A stretch of 64,000 nt of DNA from NCBI GenBank assembly GCA_046757845.1, contig JBHHYZ010000003.1:26628-90627 (forward strand), given 5' to 3'. Positions 1 to 13,897 of this stretch are shown in pieces. The DNA is from Gemmatimonadota bacterium (lineage in GTDB: Bacteria; Gemmatimonadota; Gemmatimonadetes; Palauibacterales; Palauibacteraceae). Made by a program: the position numbers and the translations under genes. The notes under the pieces are model-generated. The model made no database searches, was not told the origin of the DNA, and was given only the letters and a program-made list of their open reading frames with translations. Position 1 is the first letter of the stretch. Each line of letters opens with the position of its first letter.

Positions 1-647
1 TGAGCCGTCCAGGCCTCGTACTCGCCCGCCTCGTGAATCACCACCCGCGCCCTCATGCGATAATGCCCCAGACCGCACAGCTCGGCACAGCCGATCTCCA
101 TCTCGCCCGGCCGCAGCGCCTGGAACCAGATGCGGATCTTCATTCCGGGCACGGCATCCTGCTTCACGCGCAGATCGGGGATGAAGAACGAGTGGATCAC
201 ATCTTCGGACTCCAGCTGCACGATCACCGGTTCTCCCGCCGGGATGTGGAACTGGTTCCGCAAGTGGAAATCGTCATCCGTGCCCAGCTCGCCATCCGCG
301 CCTGGATATGTGACATTCCACTCAAACTGTTTTGCTTTAACTCCAATAGTTAAAGCATCTTCTGGGAATGACGCATTCCCGCGAATCCCCGCCCAAATCC
401 GACCGCTATAGATGCCGAGAAACACGAGCACGAGGGCGGGCACCGCGGTCCAGATCAACTCCAGACGCTGGCTCCCATGGGTATACAGCGCCCGGTGCCC
501 CTCGCGCCGACGGTACCGGATCGAGAACCATACGATGCCCACCTCGACCAGCACGAAGGCGATTCCCGTGATCACGAGAATGATGAAGAACAGCCTGTCG
601 ATGTCGATCCCCTGGGTCGACAGGTTGGGAGGCAGCGACCAGTCCAC
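1..647 (-). CDS. coxB: cytochrome c oxidase subunit II, C-terminus cut by the window edge
   Basis: My own minus-strand translation from a GTG at 645-647 gives two N-terminal TM helices, then the COX II core 'IGVKAKQFEWNVTYPG' and the CuA site 'GEMEIGCAELCGLGHYRMRARVVIHE'. There is no stop codon before position 1, which explains its absence from the ORF track. Confidence 0.8.
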   Translation of the reverse strand, partial: MDWSLPPNLSTQGIDIDRLFFIILVITGIAFVLVEVGIVWFSIRYRRREGHRALYTHGSQRLELIWTAVPALVLVFLGIYSGRIWAGIRGNASFPEDALTIGVKAKQFEWNVTYPGADGELGTDDDFHLRNQFHIPAGEPVIVQLESEDVIHSFFIPDLRVKQDAVPGMKIRIWFQALRPGEMEIGCAELCGLGHYRMRARVVIHEAGEYEAWTA

Positions 648-723
648 GGCGTCTCCTCTCCTTGGAGGTTTCGAACCCCTTGAGGTCCGTTCTCTCGATC
701 TCGGGCGAGCCGCTCGCGGCCGC

Positions 724-1617
724 CTAGCGCCCGGCCCCCGCCGGCTGAGGATCCGGCGATCTCCGCCCGGCGGCCGCCGAACCGTGGTCCACGACCAACG
801 GCGTACCGAGGGGAACATCGGCCCCTGCCGCCATATCCGCGCTGTACTGGAACGCGACCTCCTGCGTCTCCTGAGGTCCCAGGGTGACGTTCTGCGTCAG
901 CGTCCCGTACTTCTCGTGCCACGCCTCGATCACATAGTCGCCGGGTGGGAGGTTGGGGATCTCGAAGCTGCCGTCCGCTCCCGAGACCGCGAAGTACGGA
1001 TGGTCCACCACCCCGATGTAGGCGTGCATCCAACCGTGGACGTCACACTTGACCGGAATCATCACCTCGGGCGTTCGGAACTGCCGCCTCGACTCCATCC
1101 CCGCCTGGGGCTGACTGATGTTGAACCCACGGTTGGCCGTGGGCTGGGTGTTGATGTTGTGCAGCACCGGATCGTCGTTCTTGATCAGGAGAGTCTGCCC
1201 TGTCTGAACACCCAGCACATGCGGATGATAGCGGCACCCAGCCTGGTCGATCTCCACGCTCTCCTCCGGGGGTGGGAAGCTTCCCGAAAGACCCTCCTTC
1301 ACGTACACGAACACGTTGGCCAGCTTGCCCTCGTTCACCACCACCGTCTGAGTGGTGGGTCCCTGGTCACCGTACTTCGCGGCGCACGCCGGCTCTTCCG
1401 ACATGTCGATCGGCTCGGCCGGAGGCGGCGTGCCATCGAACGAGATCGTGCCACGGATCGCCGCCGCTTCCTCCGGGCTCACCGCGGGCGCTGCCGCTTC
1501 GGTCGCCTCCCCGGCCTGTCCACCGGACGAGGAACCCGCTCCTTCTCCACCGCCACCGCAGCCGAACAGGACGACCGCCGGAAACAGTGCCACAGACTTC
1601 AAGATCAGAGTTCGCAT
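724..1617 (-). CDS. secreted lipoprotein-like protein with a cupredoxin-like (type-1 Cu) motif and a carboxypeptidase-regulatory-like domain
   Basis: Internal ATG at 1615-1617 gives 'MRTLILKSVALFPAVVLFGCGG', a signal peptide with lipobox. 'KCDVHGWMHAYIGVV' fits a cupredoxin C-x2-H-x2-M loop. The C-terminal 'GADGSFEIPNLPPGDYVIEAWHEKYG' is CarbopepD_reg-like. The ORF-track N-terminal extension from 2070 is spurious. Confidence 0.5.
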   Translation of the reverse strand: MRTLILKSVALFPAVVLFGCGGGGEGAGSSSGGQAGEATEAAAPAVSPEEAAAIRGTISFDGTPPPAEPIDMSEEPACAAKYGDQGPTTQTVVVNEGKLANVFVYVKEGLSGSFPPPEESVEIDQAGCRYHPHVLGVQTGQTLLIKNDDPVLHNINTQPTANRGFNISQPQAGMESRRQFRTPEVMIPVKCDVHGWMHAYIGVVDHPYFAVSGADGSFEIPNLPPGDYVIEAWHEKYGTLTQNVTLGPQETQEVAFQYSADMAAGADVPLGTPLVVDHGSAAAGRRSPDPQPAGAGR

Positions 1618-1682
1618 GCCTTTCCTCCGTAAGTGTCGATTCGATTCCCGGAACCGTCCAGGGCGGGCGGATCGGGAACCCG

Positions 1683-3233
1683 TCATGGCGCCGGGAAGCG
1701 GCGTTGCGCCCGGCGAACGAGACCGATGCTCAGTCCGCCCGTGAGCAACACCGCGAGCAACGGTACCAGAAGCACCCTTGCCGAGCCCGGCTTCTCGAGC
1801 AGCACGTAATACCAGGTTCCGATCGAGCCTCGAGTCCCGGTTTCTCCGCTGGAGCCATCCCAGGCGAAGAAGGCTACGGGAATCGGCGTTCCCTGCTCGA
1901 ATCCGAGTTCGCTTTCGTCGGCCGCGTCCAGGGCTCTGCGCAGCACCAGGCTCCAGCGTCCCTTCTCGTACGCCGACTTCGCCGTCAGGCCTCCACCGAC
2001 CAGTGGCTCGAAGTTCGCCAGGCCCCTGGCCCAGGCCTCCGAGCCCCCCTCCAGGCTGTTCCAACGCCACAGGTAGGCCGGGTTCCGCTCGTCTCCCATG
2101 AGGAAATATGGACGCTCGGAGCCCTCCGGAATCTCGGGTGGAAACTGGACGGCGAAGGCGTCCGGAATTGGACGTGTGGGAATTCCCTCGCTATCGGCGA
2201 ACAGGCTCGCGGCGATCTTGGCCTGCCATTCGTCCCAGTTCGGATCCGGACTCCGGGAAGGATCGTCCCAAACGAGCCGAAGCGCCAGGTCTGTGCCGTC
2301 ATGCAGACCCTGCACCCACACGCCGTCCACCGTCGGAGAGAACTGGCGCGGCCTCCGAATGACCTGGCCGACGAGCGGGAAGTAGAACGCTTCGGCCTGC
2401 TCCCAGGCCGGATCTTCCGGGGAATCGGGCACCTTTCCTTCCGTCCGCCGCACTCGGACCACCTCGCGCACGTGCGGGGCCTCCCGCGGACCCAGGTTGG
2501 CTACGTAATGCGCCAGCTGCCAGATCTCCTCATCCGTGACGACCCCCCCCTCCAGAACATCGATGGCCGCCGGCATCGGCGTGCCGTCAAGGCCCGTCAG
2601 GATCCGGGTGTGGATGGCCTCGACGCTGCTTCCACCATTGAACAACCATGACTCGGTGAGGTCCGCCGCCCGGATCGGCAGCTTCCGCCAATCCTCCAGC
2701 GACGGTGCCGAGGGGCCATCTCCGCGGCCGGCCTCTCCGTGACACTTGGCACACTCGAGCTTGCCGAACACGGTTCGCCCTGATTCGATCGCGTCCTCCC
2801 CGCCGCCAGGGTCCGAAGTGAATTCCATCGCTTCCGGCACCTCGTCCTCGAAGAACGGGGAGAACGCCTTGATGTAGGAGAGCACGTCGGCCCGCTGCGT
2901 CGACGACAGGTTGGGCCAGGACGGCATGGTGGTGCCGGGGATGCCATGCTCGAGGACGCGTTCCAGGTCCGCGTCCGTGGGGAGTTCGCCGCTCCCGGTC
3001 GTCCGGACTTGATAGCGCGCGGCGGTGAAATCGCGGGGACGAGGAAGCATGCGTTCCGCCGCCGGCCCATCTCCCTTCCCATCCTCCCCGTGGCAATCCA
3101 CACACCACCGCTCGTACACCAGGCGACCCCGCTCGGAACTCTGAGCGACGACCCGACCCGAAGGCCAGCCCAGAGCTGCGAGCAGCGCGATGCCCACGCC
3201 CAGCTTGACCCGAACCCTTCCCCCATCCCTCAT
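1683..3233 (-). CDS. diheme c-type cytochrome fused to an EB_dh/DOMON-like heme-binding domain
   Basis: The internal start 'MRDGGRVRVKLGVGIALLAALGW' (signal peptide) lies at 3231-3233 and overlaps the upstream stop (ATGA). Two CXXCH motifs: CVDCHG and CAKCHG. The C-terminal half ('PYFLMGDERNPAYLWRWNS...AFFAWDGSSGETGTRGSIGTWYYV') resembles the ethylbenzene-dehydrogenase gamma / NxrC-type heme domain. A C-terminal TM helix follows. Confidence 0.6.
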   Translation of the reverse strand: MRDGGRVRVKLGVGIALLAALGWPSGRVVAQSSERGRLVYERWCVDCHGEDGKGDGPAAERMLPRPRDFTAARYQVRTTGSGELPTDADLERVLEHGIPGTTMPSWPNLSSTQRADVLSYIKAFSPFFEDEVPEAMEFTSDPGGGEDAIESGRTVFGKLECAKCHGEAGRGDGPSAPSLEDWRKLPIRAADLTESWLFNGGSSVEAIHTRILTGLDGTPMPAAIDVLEGGVVTDEEIWQLAHYVANLGPREAPHVREVVRVRRTEGKVPDSPEDPAWEQAEAFYFPLVGQVIRRPRQFSPTVDGVWVQGLHDGTDLALRLVWDDPSRSPDPNWDEWQAKIAASLFADSEGIPTRPIPDAFAVQFPPEIPEGSERPYFLMGDERNPAYLWRWNSLEGGSEAWARGLANFEPLVGGGLTAKSAYEKGRWSLVLRRALDAADESELGFEQGTPIPVAFFAWDGSSGETGTRGSIGTWYYVLLEKPGSARVLLVPLLAVLLTGGLSIGLVRRAQRRFPAP

Positions 3234-4057
3234 CACTCCCCTCCCGCCGCCTGTTCCCAGGTTCGGGGCGTGCTTCCGGTCTGCCGGTACAGGAAGATGA
3301 TCACGGACCATATGTCGTCTTCGTCCAGCACATCTTCCCATACGGGCATGGCCGAGTTCCAGGGCGTTCCCTCCACGGGTAGCCCCGGTCCTCCCTTCGC
3401 GATCCTCCAGAACACGTAGCTCTCCTGGAGCTGTGAGATCGTGCCCCCGCTCGAGAAATCGGCCGGTATGGGTGAGAACGCCGCGGCGTAGTGCCCGGCC
3501 CCATCCAGCCGATCGCCGTGGCAGGGCACGCAGTTCTCCGCGTAGATGCGGGCGCCGTGGCGGTAGGACTCCTCCAGGTCGCCCAAGCTTCGCAGGGGGT
3601 TCTCCAGGCCGGCCAGGCGCATCGTCCGCCCCCGGAACGTGATCTGGGTTGGAGGAGCCGGATGGATGGATCGCAGGCTGGCCGGCGCTCCGAAGCTGGG
3701 CTTCACGCTCTCGTAGGCCAGGTAACCAACCAGGAGTGGGAGACAGACGAGCAGGATGCCCCGAAGCCACCGTCGCTCGGATTCCACCATGGTACGGTGG
3801 ATCGGCTGCTTGAACTCCGTCCAGCGGTTCTCATCCGCGCTCACGTAGAGCAGCACGCCGGCCACGGCGATCAGCATGTACTGCAAAAGCACGGAGTGTG
3901 GAACCGGAGCGCTGTGCACGCCCGCGGCGGGCAGGAGGGATCCGATTCCGTATTTGAATACCACGTAGGATCCGATCAGGAGCAGCACGGCTTGCCAGAA
4001 CGGATGCCGCAGGTATCCTCTCATCTCCCGTCCTCGCGTCGATCCGGCCTCCTCCAC
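3233..4057 (-). CDS. membrane-anchored monoheme c-type cytochrome
   Basis: N-terminal TM helices, then one CXXCH (CVPCHGD) in a C-terminal soluble domain. The start is either 4057 or the ATG at 4024. Confidence 0.6.
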   Translation of the reverse strand: MEEAGSTRGREMRGYLRHPFWQAVLLLIGSYVVFKYGIGSLLPAAGVHSAPVPHSVLLQYMLIAVAGVLLYVSADENRWTEFKQPIHRTMVESERRWLRGILLVCLPLLVGYLAYESVKPSFGAPASLRSIHPAPPTQITFRGRTMRLAGLENPLRSLGDLEESYRHGARIYAENCVPCHGDRLDGAGHYAAAFSPIPADFSSGGTISQLQESYVFWRIAKGGPGLPVEGTPWNSAMPVWEDVLDEDDIWSVIIFLYRQTGSTPRTWEQAAGGE

Positions 4058-4061
4058 GAGA

Positions 4062-4865
4062 TCATTTCGCGCCCCGCAGAAAATCCACCAGGGCCTCGAG
4101 CTGCGCGGCGGTCAGCCGATCTCCGAAGTTGGGCGGCATGGTTCCGGCGAACGCCTCGAAACCCTGAGCGGTGTCGGCGTTGGGCCGTAGGATGCCCCGT
4201 CGCAGATACTCCCGATCCTTGCCGGCAAGGCTGCTGAACGGCGGGCCCACCTTGCCGCCTTCGCCCTCGAGCTCGTGGCAGGCCAGACATCCGAGCGTAT
4301 GGATCAGCTCGCGTGGGCTCAGCGAAGCCTCGAGGATGGTCCCCCCGCCGGCGGCGGTCCCCCCGCTTCCGTCCACACCTGCGGCCTTGGCCGGAATGTC
4401 GTCGGCGGTCACCGTCACCTCCCCACCCTGGCTCTCCAGAAAAGCGACGAGAGCCCAGATCTGGGACTCCGACAGCGTACGACCCATGGGCGGCATGATG
4501 GGCTGGAAGCCCTCCACGACATACGCCGCCGGGTCGACGAGGGATTCGTAGAGATACTCCTTGCACGACATCCCCGGCTTGCGGGACGCGCACCGGGTTC
4601 CGACCTCGCGCAGCAGATCCGGCGCGCGCGTTCCCAGGCCATGGCAGGCCGTACAGCCGCCCGCGCCCCGGAACAGCTCGCCGCCGATGCGCACCAGCTC
4701 CTCTGGGGTCACATCACCACTGATGCTCACAGCCTCCGGGACCTCCGACTGAACCTGCGGGATCATGTTGGCGACCGCCGTATACACGGCCAGTGTCCCG
4801 GCCACGGTGAGGCCGATGTTCAGGTTCGTGCGCCACATGGAGGTACGACCGAATTCGCGGTTCAT
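4062..4865 (-). CDS. membrane-anchored diheme c-type cytochrome
   Basis: N-terminal TM anchor and two CXXCH motifs (CTACHG, CLACHE). The start overlaps the upstream stop (ATGA at 4862-4865). Confidence 0.65.
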   Translation of the reverse strand: MNREFGRTSMWRTNLNIGLTVAGTLAVYTAVANMIPQVQSEVPEAVSISGDVTPEELVRIGGELFRGAGGCTACHGLGTRAPDLLREVGTRCASRKPGMSCKEYLYESLVDPAAYVVEGFQPIMPPMGRTLSESQIWALVAFLESQGGEVTVTADDIPAKAAGVDGSGGTAAGGGTILEASLSPRELIHTLGCLACHELEGEGGKVGPPFSSLAGKDREYLRRGILRPNADTAQGFEAFAGTMPPNFGDRLTAAQLEALVDFLRGAK

Positions 4866-6691
4866 TCCGGCCTCCCCCCGGCCGGAGCTGTATCTCCCGA
4901 CGATCGGCCGACCGATCTCGCGGCGCTGCTCATCAGAGCGGGCTTCTCCACTAGGCCGCCCAGCCAGAAGATGAGCCCCACCAATCCGAAGAAGATGAGA
5001 ACGCAGATGCTGATCATGGTGGCGGCGGGTCCGAGCGCGGGGGTGGCGGCCTGGGGACTCGTATCGCGCATCACCTCGTACACATGCCAGTGTTGCCGGA
5101 TGCCGCTACGGGCGAAGCCCATGAGTCCCATGAGCCAGGTGAAGGTGACCGCCAGAACGAGCAGGGCGTACTGCGAGCGCGCCGGCATCTGGCCCCAGCG
5201 GATCGCACCACGCGACGTGGCTCCCCGCATCATCGCGATATCGATGGCCACCACGAACACGATGGTGGCGAGGACGGCCAGCACCTGGTAGACGCTGAAG
5301 CCGATGCGGATGATGGCGGTCACGAAGTAGCCGTACACTCCGTAGAAAACCACCACGAGGGCCGCGACTCCGAACGCCAGCCCCTGCAGCCAGGTGCCGG
5401 CTCGCGCCCACGCCACGACCGGCTCCTTGTTGGCCCGGCGATACAGAAGAAACGAGAGGAAGGTCGTGAGGATCATGAGATTCACGGCCGTGTTCTTGGC
5501 GCTCATCACGCCGAGCACGCCGAGAAACGGGTGGTGAGTACCGCCCATCGCGGCGATCTCATCTCGATTCGCGATCATCGTATGCGGGGTCGACCACACC
5601 AGGACGCCCAGCACCAGCACCAGAAGCATCCACTTGATGTGGGGCCGGAAGCGCTCGGCCCCCGGAATCCTTCCCATCCCGATCCACAGGTAGTAGTTGC
5701 CCGCCAGGAAGAGCACTCCGATCAGGAACGCCTGGATGATCCACAACCAGCTCATGAACCCGCCCATCATCGTGATGCCCAGCTGCTGGTTGTACTCGTA
5801 GATCTCGCGGCCGAGATAGTAGCCCGCGAAGGGGAGGACGATGAGGGCTCCGATCGCGATGAGGTTGCCGATGTAACCCATCCAGTCGTAGTGGGCCCGT
5901 TCCTCCTCGGTCCGCGCGGCCAGGAATCGGTAGGCGGCATAGGCTCCGACGATCGCTCCGCCGAACACCACGTTGGCGATGAGGCGGTGGATGTTGATCG
6001 GCATCCACGTCGCATTGGCCAACGCGCTCCACAGCTTCACCTGTTGTGGCGCCGTGTCCGCGGTCACCTCCGCCGGCGGGCTCATCATGTACGTGAGCCA
6101 ACCGTTGGCGATGAACATCACCGTCGTGCCCCATACATTGAGGAGGATTCCGAGACCCAGGTGGAATCTCTTGCCGGCGCCCCGGCTCCAGCGGTCCCAA
6201 CCGTAGTAGTAGAGGTACAGGGTGAAGGATTCCACGAAGAACAGGCCCACATACAGCCACATGGACGGGCCGAAGATCGCCGTCAGATAGACCCAGAATT
6301 TCGGGTAGAGGGTGGACAGGAAGAATACGAGCACCGCCCCCCAGATGGCAGTGGCGCTGTACGCGATCAACAGCAGGCGGGTGAACTCCTTGGCCAGCTT
6401 GTCGTAACGCTCTTCCCGGGTGAATATTCCGATCCCCTCCACCACCACGGCGAACATCGGCACACCCAGCACGAACGCCGCGAACATCAGATGGAGCTGG
6501 GCCGCGATCCACACTGCGCCCCGCGCATCCAGACCGAACAGGTGGAACTCCCCGTAAGCGGGAGGGCCGTCCTGCGCCAGCAGCGGGCCCGCCACCAGGA
6601 GCAGCGACGCGGCGGCCAGGACCCAGACGAGAGCGGAGCAGCGAGGTCGGCTCTTCTCTCCGGAAGAACGCTTCATCCCTGGCGCCATCAA
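4862..6691 (-). CDS. cytochrome bd ubiquinol oxidase subunit I-like (CydA family) integral membrane protein, orphan (no CydB)
   Basis: 609 aa and polytopic. The N-terminus 'AAQLHLMFAAFVLGVPMFAVVVE' matches the CydA helix-1 signature with the heme-ligand His. 'ANGWLTYMMSPP' is a GW..E-like motif. It is longer than canonical CydA, with extra C-terminal TM helices. No CydB gene is adjacent. The start overlaps the rSAM stop (ATGA). Confidence 0.65.
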   Translation of the reverse strand: MMAPGMKRSSGEKSRPRCSALVWVLAAASLLLVAGPLLAQDGPPAYGEFHLFGLDARGAVWIAAQLHLMFAAFVLGVPMFAVVVEGIGIFTREERYDKLAKEFTRLLLIAYSATAIWGAVLVFFLSTLYPKFWVYLTAIFGPSMWLYVGLFFVESFTLYLYYYGWDRWSRGAGKRFHLGLGILLNVWGTTVMFIANGWLTYMMSPPAEVTADTAPQQVKLWSALANATWMPINIHRLIANVVFGGAIVGAYAAYRFLAARTEEERAHYDWMGYIGNLIAIGALIVLPFAGYYLGREIYEYNQQLGITMMGGFMSWLWIIQAFLIGVLFLAGNYYLWIGMGRIPGAERFRPHIKWMLLVLVLGVLVWSTPHTMIANRDEIAAMGGTHHPFLGVLGVMSAKNTAVNLMILTTFLSFLLYRRANKEPVVAWARAGTWLQGLAFGVAALVVVFYGVYGYFVTAIIRIGFSVYQVLAVLATIVFVVAIDIAMMRGATSRGAIRWGQMPARSQYALLVLAVTFTWLMGLMGFARSGIRQHWHVYEVMRDTSPQAATPALGPAATMISICVLIFFGLVGLIFWLGGLVEKPALMSSAARSVGRSSGDTAPAGGRPE

Positions 6692-8046
6692 TGCCTCCGT
6701 GCGAAGAACGGCAGGCGACGGGAGAAATCTACCGGCATCTCGGCACGCACCTCCTGCATCACTTCAAGCGTGATCCGCTCGTAGCCCCGGTCCCGGGCGA
6801 AGGACTCGACTCGGCCGGCCACCACGCCGCGGACGAAAGAAGGAATCCGCCTCAGCTTCCGCTCCGCCTCCGGAGTCCACTCCAGGGCGCGCGTGACCTC
6901 GGCCCCGTAGGTGGTCGCCCGGGCGCGCGGGACGGGCTCGGCCCAGCCGGCCGGCTCGTAGGCACAGGACTCATCGGGTCCCAGGAAATCGCCATCGGTG
7001 GCATAGGCTCGGGCTCGACAACCGCCGCACACCTCACGGTATTCGCAACGGCCGCACTTGCCGCCGGGCCGACCCTCGCGCAGCAGGCGGAACAGCCTGG
7101 ACGAGCGCCATATCGTGCCGAAGTCGTCCTGCCGGAGGTCGCCCGCCACGGCTGGCATGTAGGGGCATGGCGTCACCGCCCCCTCGGGGGTGATCCGACA
7201 GTACTGGACTCCACACGGGCAGCGGGTCGCGTAATGCAGGAGCGGCGATTCGGGGTCTCGCTCATACACGTGCCGCATCAACTGAGGCTGGCACTTGGAG
7301 CGGATCATGAGCCGGCCACGGTATTCACGCTGCAACCGAACCAGCTCCAGCAGCACTTCCTCGTTCTCCGTCGGTGACAGTCCGGCCATGCCGCTGCCGC
7401 GGCCCGTCTCCACCAGGAAGTAGAAGTTGACGCACACCGCACCCATCCGATCCGCCCAGGACACCAGTCCCTCCACCTCGCGGTGGTTTCCCCTGGTGAG
7501 GGTCATCTGGACCACGAAGTCCAGACCCTGCCGGCGGAGGCGGCCCACGGCGTCGAGCGTGTCCTGGAGCGCCCCCCGGCCATGTCGGAAGCGGTCATGG
7601 TAGCGCGGATTCAACGAATCGACGCTGAGGGCGACTCCCTGCACGCCCGCTCCCATCAGGGATCCGATCCGCTCCTCCGTCAACAGTGTCCCGTTCGTCC
7701 CGACCACCACGGTGGCGCCCCCGCTCGAAGCGTGGCCCGAAATCGTTTCGAGATCCTCACGTAGCAGGGGCTCACCACCGCTGAGGATGAGCATCGGCGC
7801 GGGGTTGACCGACAACACCTGATCCACGATGCGAAGACACGCGTCCGTGCCCAGCTCTTCCTCCGCTCCATGCCATGAACCGGCCGAGATGTAACAGTGG
7901 GCGCAGGCCAGATTGCAGCGCCGCGTGAGATTCCAGGCCACGACGTGAGGCCGTGCGACAGTCGCTTCATCCCGCCCCCGGGAGAGTGGGCCGAGGGCCG
8001 GCTTGAGCCACCGAGTGGCTCGAGCCTCACTCCGACTCCCGCCCAT
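6688..8046 (-). CDS. radical SAM/SPASM-domain protein (NirJ/AhbC/AhbD-like) with a C-terminal PCP_red-like domain
   Basis: 'VVAWNLTRRCNLACAHCY' is the CxxxCxxC radical SAM motif of the SPASM/NirJ group. The C-terminal Cys-rich region 'CPCGVQYCRITPEGAVTPCPY...CGRCEYREVCGGCRARA' is the SPASM domain. The tail 'TPEAERKLRRIPSFVRGVVAGRVESFARDRGYERITLEVM' resembles the BchB/ChlB C-terminal PCP_red domain. Confidence 0.7.
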   Translation of the reverse strand: MGGSRSEARATRWLKPALGPLSRGRDEATVARPHVVAWNLTRRCNLACAHCYISAGSWHGAEEELGTDACLRIVDQVLSVNPAPMLILSGGEPLLREDLETISGHASSGGATVVVGTNGTLLTEERIGSLMGAGVQGVALSVDSLNPRYHDRFRHGRGALQDTLDAVGRLRRQGLDFVVQMTLTRGNHREVEGLVSWADRMGAVCVNFYFLVETGRGSGMAGLSPTENEEVLLELVRLQREYRGRLMIRSKCQPQLMRHVYERDPESPLLHYATRCPCGVQYCRITPEGAVTPCPYMPAVAGDLRQDDFGTIWRSSRLFRLLREGRPGGKCGRCEYREVCGGCRARAYATDGDFLGPDESCAYEPAGWAEPVPRARATTYGAEVTRALEWTPEAERKLRRIPSFVRGVVAGRVESFARDRGYERITLEVMQEVRAEMPVDFSRRLPFFARRH

Positions 8047-10105
8047 CCCCGTCCCTCTCCACCAACCTCTCCACCGCCGCTCTCGCGTCCGCGGGACTCA
8101 CCATCGCGAAATCCACCGGGCACGCGGCCGCCTGCGCCTCGATGTCCCGAATCGGACACCGGCTCACCCCGGAGGCCTTCGCCTCCTCGATGAACCGCTT
8201 CATCTCAGCGCTGAGTCCGTCTCCGCCGGTCACGTCGGCTCGGGCCTGTTTTGCCTTCAGCTCGTTGAACATCACCAGCATCGTATCCATGTCGAACTCG
8301 TCCGCCTCGATCATGGCCTCCTTGTTCTCGTCCATGACGCGCGTCGTCACGCGCCACAGGCCATGTGCGCGGGCGAACCGCTCCACCGTGTTGCGGGCCA
8401 GGGGGCGGGCGATCAGCGGCACCTGATTGAGTCGCGCGAAGGCTTCGTGCGTCCACACGATCGGATCTCCGGCAGCTCTCTGGCGGGAAGTCAGATGGCC
8501 GCTGTGAGGACACCGTTCCTGGACGGGAGGCGGAGACTCCGGACACTCCGCGTCGCGAGTCCGAACCACCGTGCGCTTCATCGCCTCTTCAGCCTTCAGC
8601 TCGGCGAGCGCGAACTCTTCCGCATCCCCGATCCCCATGATCAGCTGCATGTGGGTGGGAAGGAGCTTACGAATCGCCTCATCGAGCCTCTGGTTGGTGA
8701 CGGTGGGCAGGGTGGGAATGCCGAGCGCGGATTCCCGTCCGCCGCCGTCGGGCGAGCCATCCTCCCCGTCGTCAAAGGCGGCCGCGTAGCGGCTCCCGGG
8801 CCCGTGGAACTCGAGGACGTACTCCTCCACCGCCCTGCGGGCGATGCCCAGGGCGAAAGGTGGTACGCGGAGAATCCTCACCTCCGCCTCCGGAGCCCAT
8901 TCCAGGCCCTGTCGCCCATCCTCCTCGATCCAGGGGATCTCCTCCGGGCGCACATCCGTCGTCCCCGCGATCAGGATGTTGGTCGGGGCCAGGCGGGCAA
9001 GGTTCTCCGCCTGGCTGCCGAGCTCGGTTCCCTCGATCCGGTGTGCGCCATGCCGGGCGAGGATCAGGAGGGTGGGATCGATCTCTTCAGCCCACTGCAG
9101 GACCACCTGAAACGGCTTGCCTATCAGGATCTGCGTGTGGATCTCGACCTCGGGATACTCCCCGCCCATCACCTCCGCGCGCTTGATGTTGGCCTGGCAG
9201 AGCTTCAACAACCCCTTGTCGATGATGTTGTTGTGCAGCGCCTCCTGCTCCTCGAACTTGAACACCTTGGAGGCCTGGGCAGAAAGAACATCTTTGATGT
9301 TGTGGAACACGACGTGGTGGTACTCCACGTCGAAGGCGCTGCACACGTAGAGGCTGGCGGAGAACTCGCGCGCCAGCTCCAGCGCCTTCCGCAGACCCCT
9401 GTAAGCGTACGCCGACCCGTCCACGCAGACCATGAACCGTCCGCCCTCGAGCGGCCGCCCATCCCGGACGAGCAACACGTCCTTGCGGATGCAGCGAAGC
9501 GCTCGGCCGGCCACGCCACCCAGCTGGCTGTAGGGCTGCCGACCCAGGCCGTGCGCACCCAAGATCACGAGATCGTAGTCGCGCCCCGAGGTGCCGGCCA
9601 ACTTCTGTTCGGCCGTCTCCTCCTCGGCGATGATGCGGCCGTCTTCCCCCAGCCTGACATCGGAGCGGACCTGCTCGCCGCCGTCGTAATGGTGGGCAAT
9701 ATTGGGATCGAACCCGATCAGGCTGGGAAGCCGCCCGCTTCCGGAGTTGGACTCGCGGACGATCTCTTCGTAGTTGATTCCCTCCAGCAGTTGCCGCGTC
9801 AGCGGCACTCCGGCCTGCCCGCAACGCTGGGCCACCTGATCCAGAAAACTGTCCGAGATGAGCTGCAGGCCTTTCTCGATGAGCTTGTCGTGGATCTTCC
9901 GCTGGCGGCGGATCTCTTGCGGCTCCTGGAACTGGGCGGGGAGCCCGATCTCCAGCTGGCGGAATCGTACGTCGTGCAGGCGAGCGGCGTAGACGTGCGT
10001 AGCCGTGATACGGCCCTGCGACCTCTCGCAGAGCTCGATAGCCCTGTCGACCGCCCAATCCGAGTGCTCGGAGTTGTCGACAGGGACGAGAAGCTCTCGA
10101 TACAT
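8027..10105 (-). CDS. tandem universal-stress-protein (UspA) domain protein with two PCP_red-like domains
   Basis: Two UspA-like modules ('LLVPVDNSEHSDWAVDRAIEL', 'FMVCVDGSAYAYRGLRKALELA'). Two PCP_red-like repeats ('WAPEAEVRILRVPPFALGIARRAVEEYVLEFHG', 'WTHEAFARLNQVPLIARPLARNTVERFARAHG'). An acidic C-terminal tail. Confidence 0.55.
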   Translation of the reverse strand: MYRELLVPVDNSEHSDWAVDRAIELCERSQGRITATHVYAARLHDVRFRQLEIGLPAQFQEPQEIRRQRKIHDKLIEKGLQLISDSFLDQVAQRCGQAGVPLTRQLLEGINYEEIVRESNSGSGRLPSLIGFDPNIAHHYDGGEQVRSDVRLGEDGRIIAEEETAEQKLAGTSGRDYDLVILGAHGLGRQPYSQLGGVAGRALRCIRKDVLLVRDGRPLEGGRFMVCVDGSAYAYRGLRKALELAREFSASLYVCSAFDVEYHHVVFHNIKDVLSAQASKVFKFEEQEALHNNIIDKGLLKLCQANIKRAEVMGGEYPEVEIHTQILIGKPFQVVLQWAEEIDPTLLILARHGAHRIEGTELGSQAENLARLAPTNILIAGTTDVRPEEIPWIEEDGRQGLEWAPEAEVRILRVPPFALGIARRAVEEYVLEFHGPGSRYAAAFDDGEDGSPDGGGRESALGIPTLPTVTNQRLDEAIRKLLPTHMQLIMGIGDAEEFALAELKAEEAMKRTVVRTRDAECPESPPPVQERCPHSGHLTSRQRAAGDPIVWTHEAFARLNQVPLIARPLARNTVERFARAHGLWRVTTRVMDENKEAMIEADEFDMDTMLVMFNELKAKQARADVTGGDGLSAEMKRFIEEAKASGVSRCPIRDIEAQAAACPVDFAMVSPADARAAVERLVERDGDGRESE

Positions 10106-10321
10106 CCCTGCTCCGGGCTAAGGGGTATCAGCCGTGCCGGTCCCTCTATCTCAATCGAGCCTGACGGCCCGCCAAGTCTGAGCCTGCCACCCTGGTATCG
10201 ATGCGCTTCCGGTCTCGGACGCCGCGCGGACCGGGAGAGTCCGCTCGGGATCGCGGCGTGCCGAGTAAATCCGGCCCCTCATGGTGCCCCGAAACGGCTT
10301 CCCGAGGCCGGCGCGGACAAA

Positions 10322-10350
10322 CTTATAGCCGCGAGCACTCCCGAAGTCAA
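10322..10350 (-). promoter_or_regulatory. candidate sigma70-type promoter with a ~210-nt leader before the Usp-PCP_red gene
   Basis: The minus strand reads TTGACT-17 nt-TATAAG (rc of plus 10322-10350). It lies in the 260-nt gap between the ABC-2 permease and the Usp gene. Confidence 0.3.
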
Positions 10351-10366: not shown

Positions 10367-11050
10367 TCAGCGACCCGTCAATCTGCGGGCGAGAAGCGGC
10401 GCCAGGAGAAGCGCGATGCCCGTCAAAACGAGCCCTCCAGCCAGGCCGGGAAGCCAGGCTCGGCTCGCTCCTCGGAACGATTCGCCCCATCCACCGGCCA
10501 CCTGGCCCATGGCCTCGTGAAGCGGCCCGAACGGGCTCACCGCCTTGGCCGCCCATGCCCAGGTATGCCGCTCCGGGACCCGGAATACGCCAGCCATATG
10601 GAGAGCGAAAAGCGCGGTGGCGGCACACGCCAGTGCGCCCTCCGCCAAGGAGCGGACCACGGCCGCTACCAGCGCGCCCAGGACGTTGGCCGAGAGGAGC
10701 GCGAGGCTCATGGCGGCCAGCGCCGCCACGGCGCCCGCGGGTCGCAAACCCTCAGCGAGGAAGAGCAGCAGCATGGCCGGCAGCAATTGCAGGGTATCCA
10801 AACATGAAGCCGCCAGGAGGCGCTCCCCCAGCCAGCGCCGCTCTCCGTATCCCGTCAGGAGGATCTTCTCCGTCCAGCCCGAATCCGCATCCCGGACCAG
10901 CGGGACGCAGCTGCCGAACGCGCCGAAGAAAACGATGAACAGGGTGAACACCACCGCCCGGTGCGCTTCCGGGGCCGAGCTCAGCGCAACCGGCCCCAGC
11001 AAGCCCAGCGGCACGCCGACGTTCCACAACAACAGGCGACGGCGCCGCAT
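10367..11050 (-). CDS. ABC-2 type transporter permease
   Basis: Multi-TM hydrophobic protein immediately downstream of the ABC ATPase. The likely start is the internal 'MRRRRLLLWNVG' at 11050; the ORF-track extension to 11422 overlaps the ATPase. Confidence 0.5.
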   Translation of the reverse strand: MRRRRLLLWNVGVPLGLLGPVALSSAPEAHRAVVFTLFIVFFGAFGSCVPLVRDADSGWTEKILLTGYGERRWLGERLLAASCLDTLQLLPAMLLLFLAEGLRPAGAVAALAAMSLALLSANVLGALVAAVVRSLAEGALACAATALFALHMAGVFRVPERHTWAWAAKAVSPFGPLHEAMGQVAGGWGESFRGASRAWLPGLAGGLVLTGIALLLAPLLARRLTGR

Positions 11051-11085
11051 CGCGATGCGCCATTCGAGAGCCCACACATCACGCT

Positions 11086-12012
11086 TCACGGAGAGTCCTG
11101 GACTCCGAGCGAGGCTCCCGTCATCGAGAGGAAGACGTCGTCCAGATCGGGCTCGCGAATCCGCACGCTGTTGAGCTCCACACCGCCGCGCACCAGCCAC
11201 CCACAGAACTCCGGGAGCTGTCCCGATCCGCCTGCCGAAGCGAAGCGGGCGATGCCGTCGTCGCTCCCCAGAGCCACCACGCCCTCCGGCGGACCCCCGG
11301 GGAGACGGATGCCTTCCCACTCCACTTCGAACACCGTCTGACGTTCCAGTCCACCCACCAGCTGGGCCGGCGCACCCTCGGCCACCACTCTTCCCCCATA
11401 CAACAGAATCACCCGGTCGCACCCCGCCGCGAACGAGGCATCATGCAGCGCCACGACCGCTCCCCCTCCCCGCGCCGAGTGCTCCTCGAGGGCGTGGGCG
11501 AGAACCGCTCGAGCCTCCACATCGAGACCGATCAGCGGTTCGTCCAGGAGAAGCAACTCCGCACCCGAGGCGAACGCCTCGGCCAGCGCCAGGCGCCGTC
11601 TCTGGCCGAGCGAGTAGGTGGACGCGCGCCGCCCCGCCCGATCCGCCAAGCCGAACCGCGTGAGCCACCGCGAGATCGCCCGGGCGTCACGGGTCACGCC
11701 CCGCAGCCTGGTCAGATGCGCCAGGTTCTCCCCACCGGTGAGGTCGGGATGGATCGGAAGATAGTCGAACACGACGGCCAGTCGGCGGCGAAGCTCCCTC
11801 AGAGGGAGCGAACCGGACTCCGCCAGCAGACGCAGGGTGCCGTACGCCGGCACTGTCGCGGTCGCCAGCATCCGGAGAAGCGTGGTCTTGCCGGAGCCGT
11901 TCGGGCCTACGAGAGCCACGACCTCGCCCCTGCGGACTGAGACATCCACGCCGCGCAGCGCCCACGTCCCGTCGCGATACCGATAGCTCAGGTCATGCCC
12001 GGTGGCCAGCAC
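11086..12012 (-). CDS. ABC transporter ATP-binding protein
   Basis: Walker A 'GPNGSGKTT', signature 'LGQRRRL' and Walker B 'LLLLDEP'. Confidence 0.8.
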   Translation of the reverse strand: MLATGHDLSYRYRDGTWALRGVDVSVRRGEVVALVGPNGSGKTTLLRMLATATVPAYGTLRLLAESGSLPLRELRRRLAVVFDYLPIHPDLTGGENLAHLTRLRGVTRDARAISRWLTRFGLADRAGRRASTYSLGQRRRLALAEAFASGAELLLLDEPLIGLDVEARAVLAHALEEHSARGGGAVVALHDASFAAGCDRVILLYGGRVVAEGAPAQLVGGLERQTVFEVEWEGIRLPGGPPEGVVALGSDDGIARFASAGGSGQLPEFCGWLVRGGVELNSVRIREPDLDDVFLSMTGASLGVQDSP

Positions 12013-12021
12013 CCCCCCACC

Positions 12022-12282
12022 TCACGGAACCAGAAGCACGCCGGCTCCATCGGACACCGTGATCGCGTCCACCGGACACGCCGCGCAGGCCTCCAGGAGC
12101 CGGGCTCGCGGCACTTCGCCCGAACCGCGGAACACGGCGATTCCTTCCTCATCCAGATCGAATGCCTCCGGCGCCACGGTACAGCAGTCGGCGAATCCCA
12201 CGCACAGATCCCGGTCGATGCGCAGGGTGAGGCCGTGAACTCGACACAGGCCTGCTCCAGGTGGGGCGTGCACCGGCTTCAC
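12022..12282 (-). CDS. small [Fe-S] ferredoxin
   Basis: 86 aa; 'CVGFADCCTVAP...CPVDAI' is a single-cluster ferredoxin pattern. Confidence 0.55.
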   Translation of the reverse strand: MKPVHAPPGAGLCRVHGLTLRIDRDLCVGFADCCTVAPEAFDLDEEGIAVFRGSGEVPRARLLEACAACPVDAITVSDGAGVLLVP

Positions 12283-12764
12283 ATCCCTTCCAGCCCCAGG
12301 TCACTCCGGGCCCGGTCCATCACCGAAGGCGTGATCTCGCCGATCCCGTGCTGCCTAGCGTAATCCGCATAGATGCGCTTCACCATGCCCCGGACGAAAC
12401 GAGGGACCTGCTCGAGCCGCTCGACGGCCTCGAAGCTCCAGCGCACCGGTCCGTCCGCCGCGTCCCCGGAACAGGCGGGTGGTGCCGCCGGCGGGCTGTC
12501 CCGCTCCATCGAATCGGCGAACGCCTCCTCCTTCCCCTCGGCCAGCGAACGCCGCACCAGCTCCAGGGGCTGAGAAGGAACGGTGCGACCCCCCACCACC
12601 ACCCCCAGCGAACTCACCAGCTGCGTCTCCATCGGGTTGGCCAGCATGGCGGTCATCCTCTCACACCTGGGGCAGCGAAACACGGCCGCGAAGGTTCCGT
12701 CACCCGGGAGCTCCCGCTCCTCGAACACCATCTGCTCATCGCATTCAACGCACAGGAACTTCAT
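12279..12764 (-). CDS. zinc-ribbon + PCP_red-like domain protein
   Basis: N-terminal 'CVECDEQ...CPRCER' is a CxxC...CxxC zinc ribbon. C-terminal 'WSFEAVERLEQVPRFVRGMVKRIYADYARQHGIGEITPSVMD' is a PCP_red-like domain. Confidence 0.5.
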   Translation of the reverse strand: MKFLCVECDEQMVFEERELPGDGTFAAVFRCPRCERMTAMLANPMETQLVSSLGVVVGGRTVPSQPLELVRRSLAEGKEEAFADSMERDSPPAAPPACSGDAADGPVRWSFEAVERLEQVPRFVRGMVKRIYADYARQHGIGEITPSVMDRARSDLGLEGM

Positions 12765-12782
12765 GCCGTCCCACTCACCCCT

Positions 12783-13680
12783 TCAATCTCTCGAACCCCG
12801 GTCGTGAAGCCGTTCCACGATCCGTCGGGCGATCTCCCTCAGGGCTCGTCCCGCCTCGGTCCGGGCCAGCAGCTCGCCCATTCGGCCGGCCTCGGCCAGC
12901 CGTCCCGCCACGCAATCGAACGGTATCCGGCCCAGCAGAGGGACCCGAAAACGGGAGGCCAGAGTGCGGCCGGCCTCACCCGGGAACAGGGGGCCCACCG
13001 TTTCACAGGTCGGGCAGTGGTAGCCCGACATGTTCTCGACGATGCCCAGCAACTCGATCCCCCTTCGACGGCAGAGTGTAAGCGAGCGTTCAACGGACTC
13101 GCGCGCCGCCTCCGACGGAGCCGTCACGGCCACCACTCCGGCGAGGGCCGGCACGAGCTCGTGCAGCTCGAGCAGCCGCTGCGTGACCGGAGGCAGATCC
13201 ACCAACAGGAAATCCAGGGACCCCCACTCCACATCGGAGAGGAACTCCCTCAGCGCGCCCCTTTCCTGCGCACCTCTCCACACGAAGCTGTCCGACCCCG
13301 GCTCGCGCCATTCCACGGGCTGGGCGTCCGAGAGCAGCAGGGCCATCGACATCAGAACCACGCCATCGGGCGAGATCGCGGGTCGCACGGACCGGTCGAC
13401 CGCCTCCAGCGGAGTCGAGCGGACCCCTAGCATGCGCGCCGCGGTAGGACCGTTGAGATCGGCATCCAGGAGCCCGATCGAGCCATGATCGCGACGCAGA
13501 GCCGTAGCCAGGACCGCACTCACCAGGCTCTTGCCGACTCCGCCCTTGCCGCTCATCACGGCGATCACCGAGTCGACCTCGCGGATCCGCTGGGCGACCC
13601 TGGCCGCCTGTTCCTGGACCTGTGCTCCCAGACCCGACGCGTCCGGTCCGGTGAGTTGATGATACGTCCGAATTACCACG
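12783..13680 (-). CDS. Mrp/NBP35 (ApbC) family iron-sulfur cluster carrier ATPase
   Basis: 'IAVMSGKGGVGKS' P-loop and 'CPTCETVGPLF' (CxxC) characteristic of ApbC. The likely GTG/TTG start is near 13680; the ORF-track N-terminus from 13829 looks non-coding. Confidence 0.75.
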
Positions 13681-13897
13681 CTCCGCGCACGCTCCTTCGG
13701 CGTGTGTCCGCCTGCCGGGAGAGAGTTCGCCAAGCACCCGCTCGACGACCGTACAACGTGCCCGCCGACCCCTGAACGCGTCAAGCGGACGTTGCCCGGT
13801 ACCCACGGGCTTCCGCGTCCGGGCCCCATCGCCTAGGTTTCATACAGTGCAGATCGGCCGCTCGGCGGCCGGAAGCTCCATCATCCCTGGGGTCTGT

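What the first reader, a model, noticed from the sequence alone, without database searches (positions are those of the whole stretch)
1..8046. Translationally coupled operon: orphan CydA-like protein, three c-type cytochromes, a cupredoxin-like protein and COX subunit II
Seen: seven consecutive minus-strand genes with 4-nt ATGA start/stop overlaps at 3230-3233, 4862-4865 and 6688-6691. There are five CXXCH motifs (CVDCH, CAKCH, CVPCH, CTACH, CLACH). The 609-aa protein carries the CydA helix-1 signature, with no CydB next to it. There is a C-x2-H-x2-M cupredoxin-like loop, and the operon ends in the CuA motif CAELCGLGHYRM of cytochrome c oxidase subunit II. Established: as far as I recall, the same parts list (cyt bd-like subunit, mono- and diheme cyt c, blue-copper protein, EB_dh-type heme protein) is encoded next to nitrite oxidoreductase in anammox bacteria. 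Orphan CydA-like proteins have been proposed but not characterised as novel oxidase or quinol-interacting modules in Nitrospira. Inference: this is an uncharacterised quinol:cytochrome c oxidoreductase, functionally replacing bc1 or alternative complex III, that feeds the adjacent heme-copper oxidase.
Basis: partly seen in the sequence, partly recalled or inferred. Interest (0 to 1): 0.8.

Follow-up and report, generated by a model that had tools for sequence, protein, structure and literature searches.

The report
Cytochrome bd-like respiratory module beside aa3 oxidase
This is a real and tightly packed respiratory gene cluster from a Gemmatimonadota bacterium: a known but never purified "cytochrome bd-like" membrane module with its c-type cytochromes, a blue-copper lipoprotein and an aa3 oxidase, and sequence alone cannot say whether the bd-like part reduces oxygen or oxidises quinol.

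Summary
Positions 1-8046 carry seven minus-strand genes:
- a radical-SAM enzyme (not a cytochrome);
- a 609-aa CydA-like protein;
- three c-type cytochromes with five CXXCH motifs in all, one fused to an EB_dh heme-b domain;
- a type-1-copper lipoprotein;
- CoxB with a CuA site.

Two of the three "ATGA" overlaps are slightly misread.

The CydA-like protein fits the published OR-N2 subfamily (Murali 2021). It has about 14 TM helices and no Q-loop. The His19, His186, Glu107 and His126 equivalents are kept, while Glu99 is Tyr and Glu445 is Ser. With its two membrane cytochromes c and the EB_dh cytochrome, it matches the "TO_1" / bd-like + alt-NxrC module of Nitrospira, Nitrospina, Manganitrophus and anammox bacteria.

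What may be new is the context. In all 84 Gemmatimonadota loci examined, the module sits in one fixed block: Mrp, PCP_red, ferredoxin, Usp, radical SAM, module, cupredoxin, CoxBACD. No bc1 or ACIII gene lies nearby.

The reaction is unproven. I favour a cytochrome c/cupredoxin-fed oxygen reductase (0.45).

This is a new member of a known, uncharacterised kind.

The parts
3..647 (-). coxB: subunit II of an aa3-type heme-copper oxidase. It has 2 TM helices and a CuA cupredoxin domain but no fused cytochrome c. The C-terminus runs off the window.
   Evidence: Pfam COX2 and COX2_TM match. TIGR02866 scores 166 bits against a cut-off of 148. The CuA residues H152, C187, C191, H195 and M198 are kept in at least 95% of the 61 aligned sequences. 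In syntenic loci coxA, coxC, coxD and ctaB follow.
724..1617 (-). A 297-aa lipoprotein: a type-1 (blue) copper cupredoxin domain joined to a transthyretin-like CarboxypepD_reg beta-sandwich. It is the probable periplasmic electron shuttle.
1683..3233 (-). A 516-aa protein: signal peptide, two cytochrome c domains (CVDCH, CAKCH), an EB_dh heme-b domain and a C-terminal TM anchor. It has the 'alternative NxrC' architecture.
   Evidence: Pfam Cytochrom_C matches twice and EB_dh scores 55 bits. TIGR03477 (DMSO reductase type II gamma subunit) gives E = 6e-25. A TM helix lies at 482-507. It is 32% identical over its full length to the Fibrobacterota orthologue. Two CXXCH motifs occur in 66/66 orthologues.
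3233..4057 (-). A 274-aa core subunit with three TM helices and one periplasmic cytochrome c domain (CVPCH).
   Evidence: It is 37% identical to the Fibrobacterota orthologue, and a close counterpart lies in the Nitrospira-like locus L088. C176, C179, H180, M237 and the R129...H132-P-A-P-P136 motif are kept in at least 95% of the aligned orthologues.
4062..4865 (-). A 267-aa diheme cytochrome c (CTACH, CLACH) with an N-terminal membrane anchor.
   Evidence: Two CXXCH motifs occur in 47/47 orthologues. An ATGA start/stop overlap with the CydA-like gene lies at 4865-4862.
4862..6691 (-). A 609-aa CydA-like membrane protein of the OR-N2 subfamily: a signal or anchor helix plus about 13 TM helices, and no Q-loop.
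6688..8046 (-). A radical SAM/SPASM enzyme with a C-terminal PCP_red domain. It resembles AhbD/NirJ2, so it probably processes tetrapyrroles or heme. Its stop overlaps the CydA-like start.
   Evidence: Pfam Radical_SAM, SPASM and PCP_red match. NirJ2 scores 276 bits and AhbD 259 bits, both below the cut-off of 500. It lies upstream of the CydA-like gene in nearly all of the 84 loci (an orthologue could be extracted in 75 of them). A 67%-identical homologue stands alone in an Acidobacteriota MAG.
8027..10105 (-). A 692-aa protein with two Usp domains and two PCP_red domains. It may be a regulatory or tetrapyrrole-binding accessory protein.
   Evidence: Pfam Usp matches twice and PCP_red twice. 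It is conserved in the same position.
10367..13829 (-). A conserved upstream accessory block: a Mrp/MrpORP-like Fe-S carrier ATPase, a 161-aa Cys4 + PCP_red protein, a small 4Fe-4S ferredoxin, an ABC ATPase and an ABC-2 permease.
   Evidence: The order is the same in L001, L003 and most of the 84 loci. The ABC pair is found in only about 20 of the loci.

Best explanation
**Shown.** The region encodes an OR-N2-type cytochrome bd-like membrane module. This is the same four-gene unit described as "TO_1" in Manganitrophus and as "bd-like oxidase + two cytochromes c + alternative NxrC" in Nitrospira, Nitrospina and anammox bacteria. In Gemmatimonadota it is joined to a type-1-copper lipoprotein and an aa3 cytochrome oxidase, and it follows a heme-synthase-like radical SAM gene.

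**Inferred composition.** The 14-TM CydA-like subunit keeps a His-ligated heme at the bd oxygen site (H67) and a His/Met heme b558 (H235/M396). It also keeps part of the cytoplasmic proton pathway (E154, H177). It has no quinol loop. It assembles with a 3-TM monoheme c subunit, an anchored diheme c, and an anchored diheme c/heme b subunit. Together these give a periplasmic wire of five c hemes and one b heme.

**Inferred mechanism, my preferred reading.** Electrons arriving from periplasmic carriers run down this wire to the CydA-like subunit. There O2 is reduced with protons taken from the cytoplasm, as in cytochrome bd. The module would then be a second, cytochrome c/cupredoxin-fed terminal oxidase branch. 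It would share its carriers, heme supply and probably a supercomplex with the adjacent aa3 oxidase.
For: **Family assignment**
- Pfam and PDB sequence matches cover only the N-terminal heme bundle.
- The residue pattern is identical to OR-N2 in Murali's table.
- The protein is 49% identical to the OR-N2 of a Nitrospira-like OR-N1/Rieske/cytochrome b locus, but only 33% identical to that locus's OR-N1.

**Module conservation**
- Homologous 274-aa and EB_dh subunits accompany the CydA-like gene in Fibrobacterota and in the Nitrospira-like locus.

**Support for O2 reduction**
- The His19 equivalent is present in 22 of 24 diverse homologues, and the Glu107 equivalent in 16 of 24.
- Related OR-N clades sit downstream of ACIII or bc complexes, where an oxidase is expected.
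- Nitrospira lacks heme-copper oxidases yet respires O2.
- TO_1 is the most highly expressed such complex in Manganitrophus.
- A proton path running from the cytoplasm to a site near the periplasm suits a proton-consuming reduction, not quinol oxidation (my inference).
Against: - No enzyme of this family has been purified, so O2 reduction is conjecture.
- Glu99 and Glu445, which bind or flank hemes d and b595 in E. coli, are Tyr and Ser here.
- Two terminal oxidases locked in one conserved block across a whole phylum is unusual. ACIII-caa3 and bcc-aa3 systems give a precedent for a quinol oxidoreductase sitting in exactly this position.
- Strictly anaerobic anammox bacteria keep the module.
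- No donor that would reduce the cytochromes c was identified. bc1 and ACIII are reported as rare in Gemmatimonadota.
- The AF2 model of the membrane subunit is only of medium quality (pLDDT 63).
Confidence: 0.45

Rival explanations
1. The module is a menaquinol:cytochrome c/cupredoxin oxidoreductase, a third kind of "complex III" built on a cytochrome bd scaffold. Quinol would be oxidised at a new site in the CydA-like subunit. Two extra TM helices and a conserved T-P-H...E...H-P loop replace the Q-loop next to heme b558, and the site could lie there. Electrons would leave through the c hemes and the blue-copper lipoprotein to CuA of the adjacent aa3 oxidase. In nitrite oxidisers and anammox bacteria the same module would run in reverse.
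For: - In all 84 Gemmatimonadota loci the module lies directly upstream of the cupredoxin and coxBACD, on the same strand. This is the position ACIII holds in ACIII-caa3 operons.
- CoxB has no cytochrome c domain of its own.
- No Rieske/cytochrome b gene lies within 10 kb in any locus or in the window. No ACIII-type gene appears among the called genes of L001-L004 or the window ORFs scanned.
- petB is reported in 23% and ACIII in under 10% of 326 Gemmatimonadota genomes, against 74% for caa3. The authors themselves suggest a novel complex III.
- Anaerobic anammox bacteria keep the module. Lucker 2013 and Mundinger 2019 propose an interaction with quinone.
- Six periplasmic hemes match the number in ACIII.
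- The diheme subunits weakly resemble actinobacterial QcrC.
Against: - No quinol-binding motif is present, and the Q-loop residues are absent.
- The retained His19 heme and the Glu107/His126 proton-path residues have no obvious role in quinol oxidation.
- The closest Nitrospira-type relative sits beside a real Rieske/cytochrome b complex.
- Gemmatimonas genomes carry petB and, judging by MAG hits, also this cluster. It is therefore not a strict replacement.
- In the truncated KEGG lists, genomes with an orphan cydA had petB at about the background rate (3 of 16).
- The reported rarity of ACIII may be an annotation artefact.
Confidence: 0.33
2. The module reduces neither O2 nor quinone. It would be a membrane-anchored electron-collecting hub. 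Its EB_dh cytochrome b would dock a periplasmic molybdoenzyme or another donor, as NxrC docks NxrAB, and pass electrons to aa3. Alternatively its active-site heme would reduce a different small oxidant such as NO, H2O2 or chlorite.
For: - EB_dh domains are the gamma subunits of type II DMSO-reductase-family enzymes.
- In nitrite oxidisers the module is linked to NXR.
- A Fibrobacterota homologue lacks both His heme ligands yet keeps the whole module. The CydA-like subunit can therefore have a non-redox role.
- Canonical cytochrome bd has side activities with NO and H2O2 (cited).
Against: - No molybdopterin alpha/beta subunit genes appear among the called genes of the syntenic loci or the window ORFs scanned.
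- The CydA-like protein is the most conserved gene of the block (72-86% identity), and its heme ligands are conserved within the phylum. This argues for a catalytic core.
Confidence: 0.12
3. The genes are an ordinary cydAB-type quinol oxidase operon that has been mis-split, or they are decaying pseudogenes.
For: Database annotations call the protein "cytochrome ubiquinol oxidase subunit I".
Against: - There is no CydB and no Q-loop, and the protein has 14 TM helices.
- All the ORFs are intact.
- The motifs and gene order are conserved in 84 loci.
- NCBIfam CydA scores 27 bits against a cut-off of 968.
Confidence: 0.01

Closest known systems
OR-N2 subfamily of the cytochrome bd superfamily (Murali, Gennis & Hemp 2021). 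Equivalent names are the NIDE0901-like "bd-like oxidase" of Nitrospira and the "TO_1" complex of Ca. Manganitrophus.
   Same: - 14 TM helices and no Q-loop.
- The same conserved and substituted residues (His19, Tyr for Glu99, Glu107, His126, His186, Met/Asn, Ser for Glu445).
- An operon with several cytochromes c and an EbdC-like periplasmic cytochrome b.
- No CydB.
   Different: - The host is a non-nitrifying Gemmatimonadota bacterium.
- No OR-N1 paralogue, Rieske/cytochrome b or NXR lies nearby.
- Instead the module is fixed between a radical-SAM/PCP_red accessory block and a cupredoxin + aa3 oxidase.
- The anchored cytochrome c is diheme here. It is monoheme in the two distant loci inspected.
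The NXR-associated gene set of Kuenenia, Nitrospira and Nitrospina (bd-like oxidase, mono- and diheme cytochrome c, alternative NxrC, cupredoxin-like proteins)
   Same: The parts list and the domain architectures are the same, including a copper protein next to the module.
   Different: There are no nxrAB genes and no TorD-like chaperone. A complete aa3 oxidase takes their place. In Gemmatimonadota the physiological direction of electron flow must be toward O2.
Canonical cytochrome bd quinol oxidase (CydAB/CydX)
   Different: This protein has no CydB, no Q-loop (K252/E257) and no Glu99 or Glu445. It has five extra TM helices, and its partners are c-type cytochromes rather than quinol.
Alternative complex III-caa3 and actinobacterial bcc-aa3 supercomplexes
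   Same: In both, a multi-heme membrane complex is encoded directly upstream of a heme-copper oxidase. There are about six periplasmic hemes. The diheme c subunits weakly resemble QcrC.
   Different: There is no ActB Fe-S/molybdopterin-like subunit, no NrfD-type ActC/ActF, no Rieske protein and no cytochrome b. The membrane core is CydA-like.

Membership tests
OR-N2 (cytochrome bd superfamily, Murali 2021) | Homology to CydA is confined to the N-terminal heme-binding helices, and the His19-equivalent ligand is kept. | tested here: met
   [not shown]
OR-N2 (cytochrome bd superfamily, Murali 2021) | The Q-loop and quinol-binding residues are absent, and there are about 14 TM helices. | tested here: met
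   The hydropathy profile and the AF2 helices show 14 membrane-length helices (one N-terminal signal/anchor helix plus 13). Between H235 and M396 lie three TM helices and only a short loop.
OR-N2 (cytochrome bd superfamily, Murali 2021) | The subfamily residue pattern: Tyr at Glu99, Glu at Glu107, His126, His186, Met...Asn four residues apart, Ser at Glu445, and Trp six residues later. | tested here: met
   Y147, E154, H177, H235, M396/N400, S529 and W535 compare with Y183, E190, H213, H269, M430/N434, S563 and W569 in the reference. OR-N1 has Gly at the Glu107 position.
OR-N2 (cytochrome bd superfamily, Murali 2021) | The operon carries several cytochromes c and an EbdC homologue, often without a second CydA. 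| tested here: met
OR-N2 (cytochrome bd superfamily, Murali 2021) | Placement inside the OR-N2 clade of the published phylogeny or HMM classifier. | not tested
   The published HMMs and tree were not available. Only pairwise identities to one OR-N2 (49%) and one OR-N1 (33%) were obtained.
Canonical cytochrome bd quinol oxidase (CydAB) | A CydB partner subunit is encoded alongside. | tested here: not met
   No Cyt_bd_oxida_II match appeared among the window ORFs scanned or in the 84 syntenic loci.
Canonical cytochrome bd quinol oxidase (CydAB) | A periplasmic Q-loop, and the full heme-ligand set including Glu99 and Glu445. | tested here: not met
   The Q-loop is replaced by TM helices, Glu99 is Tyr and Glu445 is Ser. 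NCBIfam CydA scores 27 bits against a cut-off of 968.
Alternative complex III | ActB (Fe-S, molybdopterin-like), NrfD-type ActC/ActF, and the pentaheme ActA. | tested here: not met
   [not shown]
Cytochrome bc1/b6f | A Rieske Fe-S protein and cytochrome b. | tested here: not met
   tblastn with Rieske and cytochrome b queries gave no hit in the window or in 1.44 Mb of Gemmatimonadota loci. The whole genome could not be tested.
A-family heme-copper oxidase (aa3) | CoxB with a CuA site (H...CxxxC..H..M), followed by CoxA, CoxC and CoxD. | tested here: met
   TIGR02866 scores above its cut-off. The CuA residues are kept in at least 95% of the aligned orthologues. COX1, COX3, COX4_pro and UbiA follow in syntenic loci. 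In the window itself only coxB is visible.
Type-1 (blue) copper cupredoxin | A cupredoxin beta-sandwich with His, Cys, His and Met ligands. | tested here: met
   [not shown]
EB_dh / type II DMSO-reductase gamma subunit | An EB_dh heme-b domain encoded together with catalytic alpha/beta subunits. | tested here: inconclusive
   The domain is present above the Pfam cut-off. No alpha/beta subunit genes appear in the window or the loci, and the Met/Lys heme ligands were not mapped.
AhbD / NirJ tetrapyrrole radical SAM enzymes | A score above the equivalog cut-off, and a siroheme-pathway context. | tested here: not met
   NirJ2 scores 276 bits and AhbD 259 bits, against cut-offs of 500. The protein is related, but it is not an equivalog.

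The most novel reading that the evidence does not exclude
The bd-like module would be a third, structurally unrelated type of quinol:cytochrome c (cupredoxin) oxidoreductase. It would be the main link between menaquinol and the aa3 oxidase in Gemmatimonadota, a phylum in which most genomes show neither bc1 nor ACIII. The same machine running backwards would be the long-sought route of reverse electron flow in Nitrospira, Nitrospina and anammox bacteria.
Probability: 0.3. Interest if true: 0.85.

Novelty: new member of a known kind. Interest (0 to 1): 0.5.

Why it matters
The function of the OR-N2 "bd-like oxidase" module has been open since the first Nitrospira genome in 2010. It bears on how nitrite oxidisers, manganese oxidisers and anammox bacteria conserve energy. 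Those organisms are slow-growing and hard to manipulate.

This locus shows that the same module is a fixed part of the aerobic respiratory island of Gemmatimonadota. That phylum of heterotrophs has cultured members, including Gemmatimonas, Longimicrobium and Gemmatirosa. Here the module is uncoupled from NXR and tied to an ordinary aa3 oxidase.

This gives a cleaner setting in which to ask whether the module reduces O2 or exchanges electrons with quinone. It may also explain the apparent lack of a complex III in most Gemmatimonadota genomes.

Finally, genome surveys may be miscounting this protein as cytochrome bd, because public annotations name it "cytochrome ubiquinol oxidase subunit I".

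Tried and rejected
- **Exact look-up of the 100%-identical database protein (P0001).** No contig was on record, so I used relatives instead.
- **Broad 24-sequence alignment (A2).** It was too divergent to seed a locus search. The narrower A3 worked, but the 80 loci kept were all Gemmatimonadota. Distant synteny therefore rests on four individual look-ups.
- **Testing whether the cluster replaces bc1/ACIII genome-wide.**
  - No tool allowed a whole-genome scan.
  - The rest of the window holds only housekeeping genes.
  - The two Gemmatimonadota papers on Palauibacterales and Gaopeijiales say nothing about complex III.
  - The per-KO genome lists of Zheng 2022 are truncated. The visible part shows no anti-correlation between orphan cydA and petB, at 3 of 16.
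- **Promoter and terminator scan of the block.** Counts equal the shuffle expectation and all sites lie inside ORFs. The scan says nothing for or against a single transcript.
- **Idea that the radical SAM + PCP_red enzyme is a dedicated maturase of the bd-like protein.** This was weakened. A 67%-identical homologue stands alone in an Acidobacteriota MAG, and none lies next to the module in the Fibrobacterota or Nitrospira-like loci.
- **Search for an experimental structure or purification of a bd-like complex.** None was found.
- **The AF2 model of the CydA-like subunit.** It is only of medium confidence, so I did not use it to locate metal or quinone sites.

Full report
**1. What is in the sequence**

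The window has 64-70% G+C. The CydA-like, copper-protein and radical-SAM products of this block each have a 100%-identical entry from a "Gemmatimonadota bacterium" MAG.

Positions 1-8046 hold seven minus-strand ORFs:
- a radical SAM/SPASM protein with a C-terminal PCP_red domain (6688-8046);
- a 609-aa CydA-like protein (4862-6691);
- a 267-aa anchored diheme cytochrome c (4062-4865);
- a 274-aa protein with three TM helices and one heme c (3233-4057);
- a 516-aa protein with a signal peptide, two heme c sites, an EB_dh heme-b domain and a C-terminal anchor (1683-3233);
- a 297-aa lipoprotein (724-1617);
- CoxB (3-647, cut by the window edge).

Pfam and NCBIfam support each assignment.

The overlaps need correcting:
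- Only 4865-4862 is an ATGA start/stop overlap.
- 3236-3230 reads GTGATGA, with the stop at 3235-3233.
- 6691-6686 reads TTGATG, with the stop at 6690-6688.

The genes are still packed closely enough for translational coupling from the radical SAM gene through the EB_dh gene. Gaps of 65 nt and 76 nt precede the copper protein and coxB. A consensus scan found no terminators above the shuffle expectation.

**2. The CydA-like protein belongs to OR-N2**

Hydropathy and the model give one N-terminal signal or anchor helix and about 13 further TM helices. Where canonical CydA has its periplasmic Q-loop, this protein has extra TM helices and a short conserved loop.

The key residues are H67 (E. coli His19), Y147 (Glu99), E154 (Glu107), H177 (His126), H235 (His186), M396/N400, S529 (Glu445) and W535. 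This pattern, including its spacing, is the one Murali, Gennis and Hemp list for OR-N2.

The same authors state that OR-N2 operons "typically" contain multiple cytochromes c and an EbdC homologue, often without a second CydA. They also record OR-N in Gemmatimonadota.

The protein is 49% identical to the OR-N2 of a Nitrospira-like locus. It is 33% identical to that locus's OR-N1, which has Gly at the Glu107 position.

An exhaustive HMMER scan found 1,225 clusters (at 50% identity) related to the protein, 226 of them at E <= 1e-30.

**3. The four-gene module is known from genomics**

Three sources describe it:
- Yu and Leadbetter call the unit [quoted passage not shown] TO_1. It is the most highly expressed such complex in Manganitrophus.
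- Mundinger et al. describe bd-like oxidases of N. moscoviensis clustered with two membrane cytochromes c and an "alternative NxrC" that carries two heme c motifs and a TM helix.
- Lucker et al. 2013 list the set conserved among Kuenenia, Nitrospira and Nitrospina. It comprises an alternative NxrC, a mono- and a diheme cytochrome c, cupredoxin-like proteins and a 14-TM bd-like oxidase that lacks the Q-loop. [quoted passage not shown]

I confirmed the module outside Gemmatimonadota:
- A Fibrobacterota MAG has the CydA-like gene followed by orthologues of the 274-aa subunit (37% identity) and the EB_dh subunit (32%, full length). A relative of the copper lipoprotein lies nearby.
- A Nitrospira-like metagenomic contig has OR-N1, cytochrome c, Rieske, cytochrome b, an unknown gene, OR-N2, cytochrome c and the 274-aa-type subunit.

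**4. The copper protein**

H153, C191, H194 and M197 are invariant in 40 homologues, as is the lipobox Cys20. The "cupredoxin-like" call is therefore supported, and the C-x2-H-x2-M loop is of the amicyanin type.

**5. The Gemmatimonadota context**

The 80 best are all Gemmatimonadota, from Longimicrobiales, Gemmatimonadales and Palauibacter.

I ran tblastn with the window's proteins against these loci and four further ones. The order and strand are the same essentially everywhere the contig reaches:

Mrp-like ATPase, Cys4+PCP_red, ferredoxin, (ABC ATPase + ABC-2 permease), Usp+PCP_red, radical SAM+PCP_red, CydA-like, c267, c274, EB_dh cytochrome, cupredoxin, CoxB, CoxA, CoxC, CoxD, (CtaB).

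Other points:
- The functional unit therefore runs from about 13829 past the left edge of the window.
- The CydA-like protein is the best conserved window gene (72-86% identity).
- CXXCH counts are invariant.
- No Rieske/cytochrome b gene lies in the window or in 1.44 Mb of these loci.
- The window ORFs scanned show no CydB, bc1 or ACIII domains.

I found no paper describing this aa3-linked arrangement, but my literature search was limited.

**6. What the module does**

Two readings fit.

*Arguments for an O2 reductase fed by cytochrome c or cupredoxin:*
- The oxygen-site heme ligand and part of the cytoplasmic proton path are retained.
- Related OR-N clades sit downstream of ACIII or bc complexes, where an oxidase belongs.
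- Nitrospira respires O2 without heme-copper oxidases.
- There is no recognisable quinol site.

*Arguments for a quinol:cytochrome c oxidoreductase:*
- The phylum-wide position directly upstream of a cupredoxin and an aa3 oxidase whose CoxB lacks its own cytochrome c. ACIII-caa3 and bcc-aa3 systems are arranged in the same way.
- Anaerobic anammox bacteria retain the module.
- Zheng et al. report petB in 23% and ACIII in under 10% of 326 Gemmatimonadota genomes, against 74% with caa3. They themselves suspect a novel complex III.

I could not run the genome-wide census that would weigh these two readings. The visible parts of Zheng's lists show no anti-correlation, and Gemmatimonas genomes carry petB.

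I put the oxidase reading at 0.45, the quinol-oxidoreductase reading at 0.33, and other roles at about 0.12. None of these rests on experiment.

**7. Verdict**

The gene content was read almost perfectly, and the module is truly uncharacterised. However, it belongs to a family already defined and discussed in the literature, and the proposed function is an existing, untested hypothesis.

The useful new element is the fixed linkage to an aa3 oxidase in a phylum of heterotrophs with cultured members. That linkage makes the old question experimentally approachable.

Noticed in passing
window 8027-13829 (-): A conserved accessory block lies directly upstream on the same strand. It holds an Mrp/MrpORP-like Fe-S carrier ATPase, a 161-aa Cys4 + PCP_red protein, a small 4Fe-4S ferredoxin, an ABC ATPase (CcmA-like at 120 bits, below cut-off) with an ABC-2 permease, and a 692-aa protein with two Usp and two PCP_red domains. 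Counting the radical SAM fusion, three proteins in a row carry the PCP_red domain. This is the C-terminal domain of BchB, which I recall helps form the tetrapyrrole pocket. That hints at heme or tetrapyrrole handling or sensing.
   Followed up: partly
window 6688-8046 (-); L091:10001-11323: A radical SAM/SPASM enzyme related to AhbD/NirJ2 (below the equivalog cut-offs) is fused to PCP_red and translationally coupled to the CydA-like gene. A 67%-identical homologue stands alone in an Acidobacteriota MAG. It is therefore probably a general, possibly O2-independent, heme-synthase-like enzyme and not a dedicated maturase.
   Followed up: partly
L090:10001-12070 (Fibrobacterota MAG, P0168): This OR-N2 homologue keeps the full module context. 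It has Phe and Asn/Ser at the two His heme-ligand positions (H67 and H235 equivalents), and it carries an N-terminal fused cytochrome c (CNTCH). In this lineage the membrane subunit may be heme-poor. System II cytochrome c biogenesis genes (ResB, CcsA) lie next to it.
   Followed up: partly
L085:10001-11914 (Nitrospirota / Manganitrophaceae, P0271): A 40%-identical homologue is a true orphan. No cytochrome c genes are adjacent, and it lies directly downstream of a NuoF-like (Complex1_51K) gene.
   Followed up: no
[not shown]
   Followed up: no
window 3233-4057 (-), residues 129-136: The 3-TM monoheme subunit has a conserved (at least 95% of orthologues) R...H-P-A-P-P motif just after its third TM helix. 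The motif is also present in the Nitrospira-like and Fibrobacterota orthologues. Its role is unknown.
   Followed up: no
window 29365-31284 (-): A SelB selenocysteine-specific elongation factor is encoded here, which implies that the genome makes selenoproteins.
   Followed up: no
window 33235-38324 (-): A TonB-dependent receptor with an N-terminal CarboxypepD_reg domain lies next to a FecCD permease, an ABC ATPase and a periplasmic binding protein. This is a likely iron-siderophore, heme or cobalamin uptake cluster.
   Followed up: no
literature: Zheng 2022, Data Set S4: KEGG counts in 326 Gemmatimonadota genomes give cydA in 173 but cydB in only 95. Some "cytochrome bd" calls in genome surveys of this phylum may really be this orphan bd-like protein.
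   Followed up: partly
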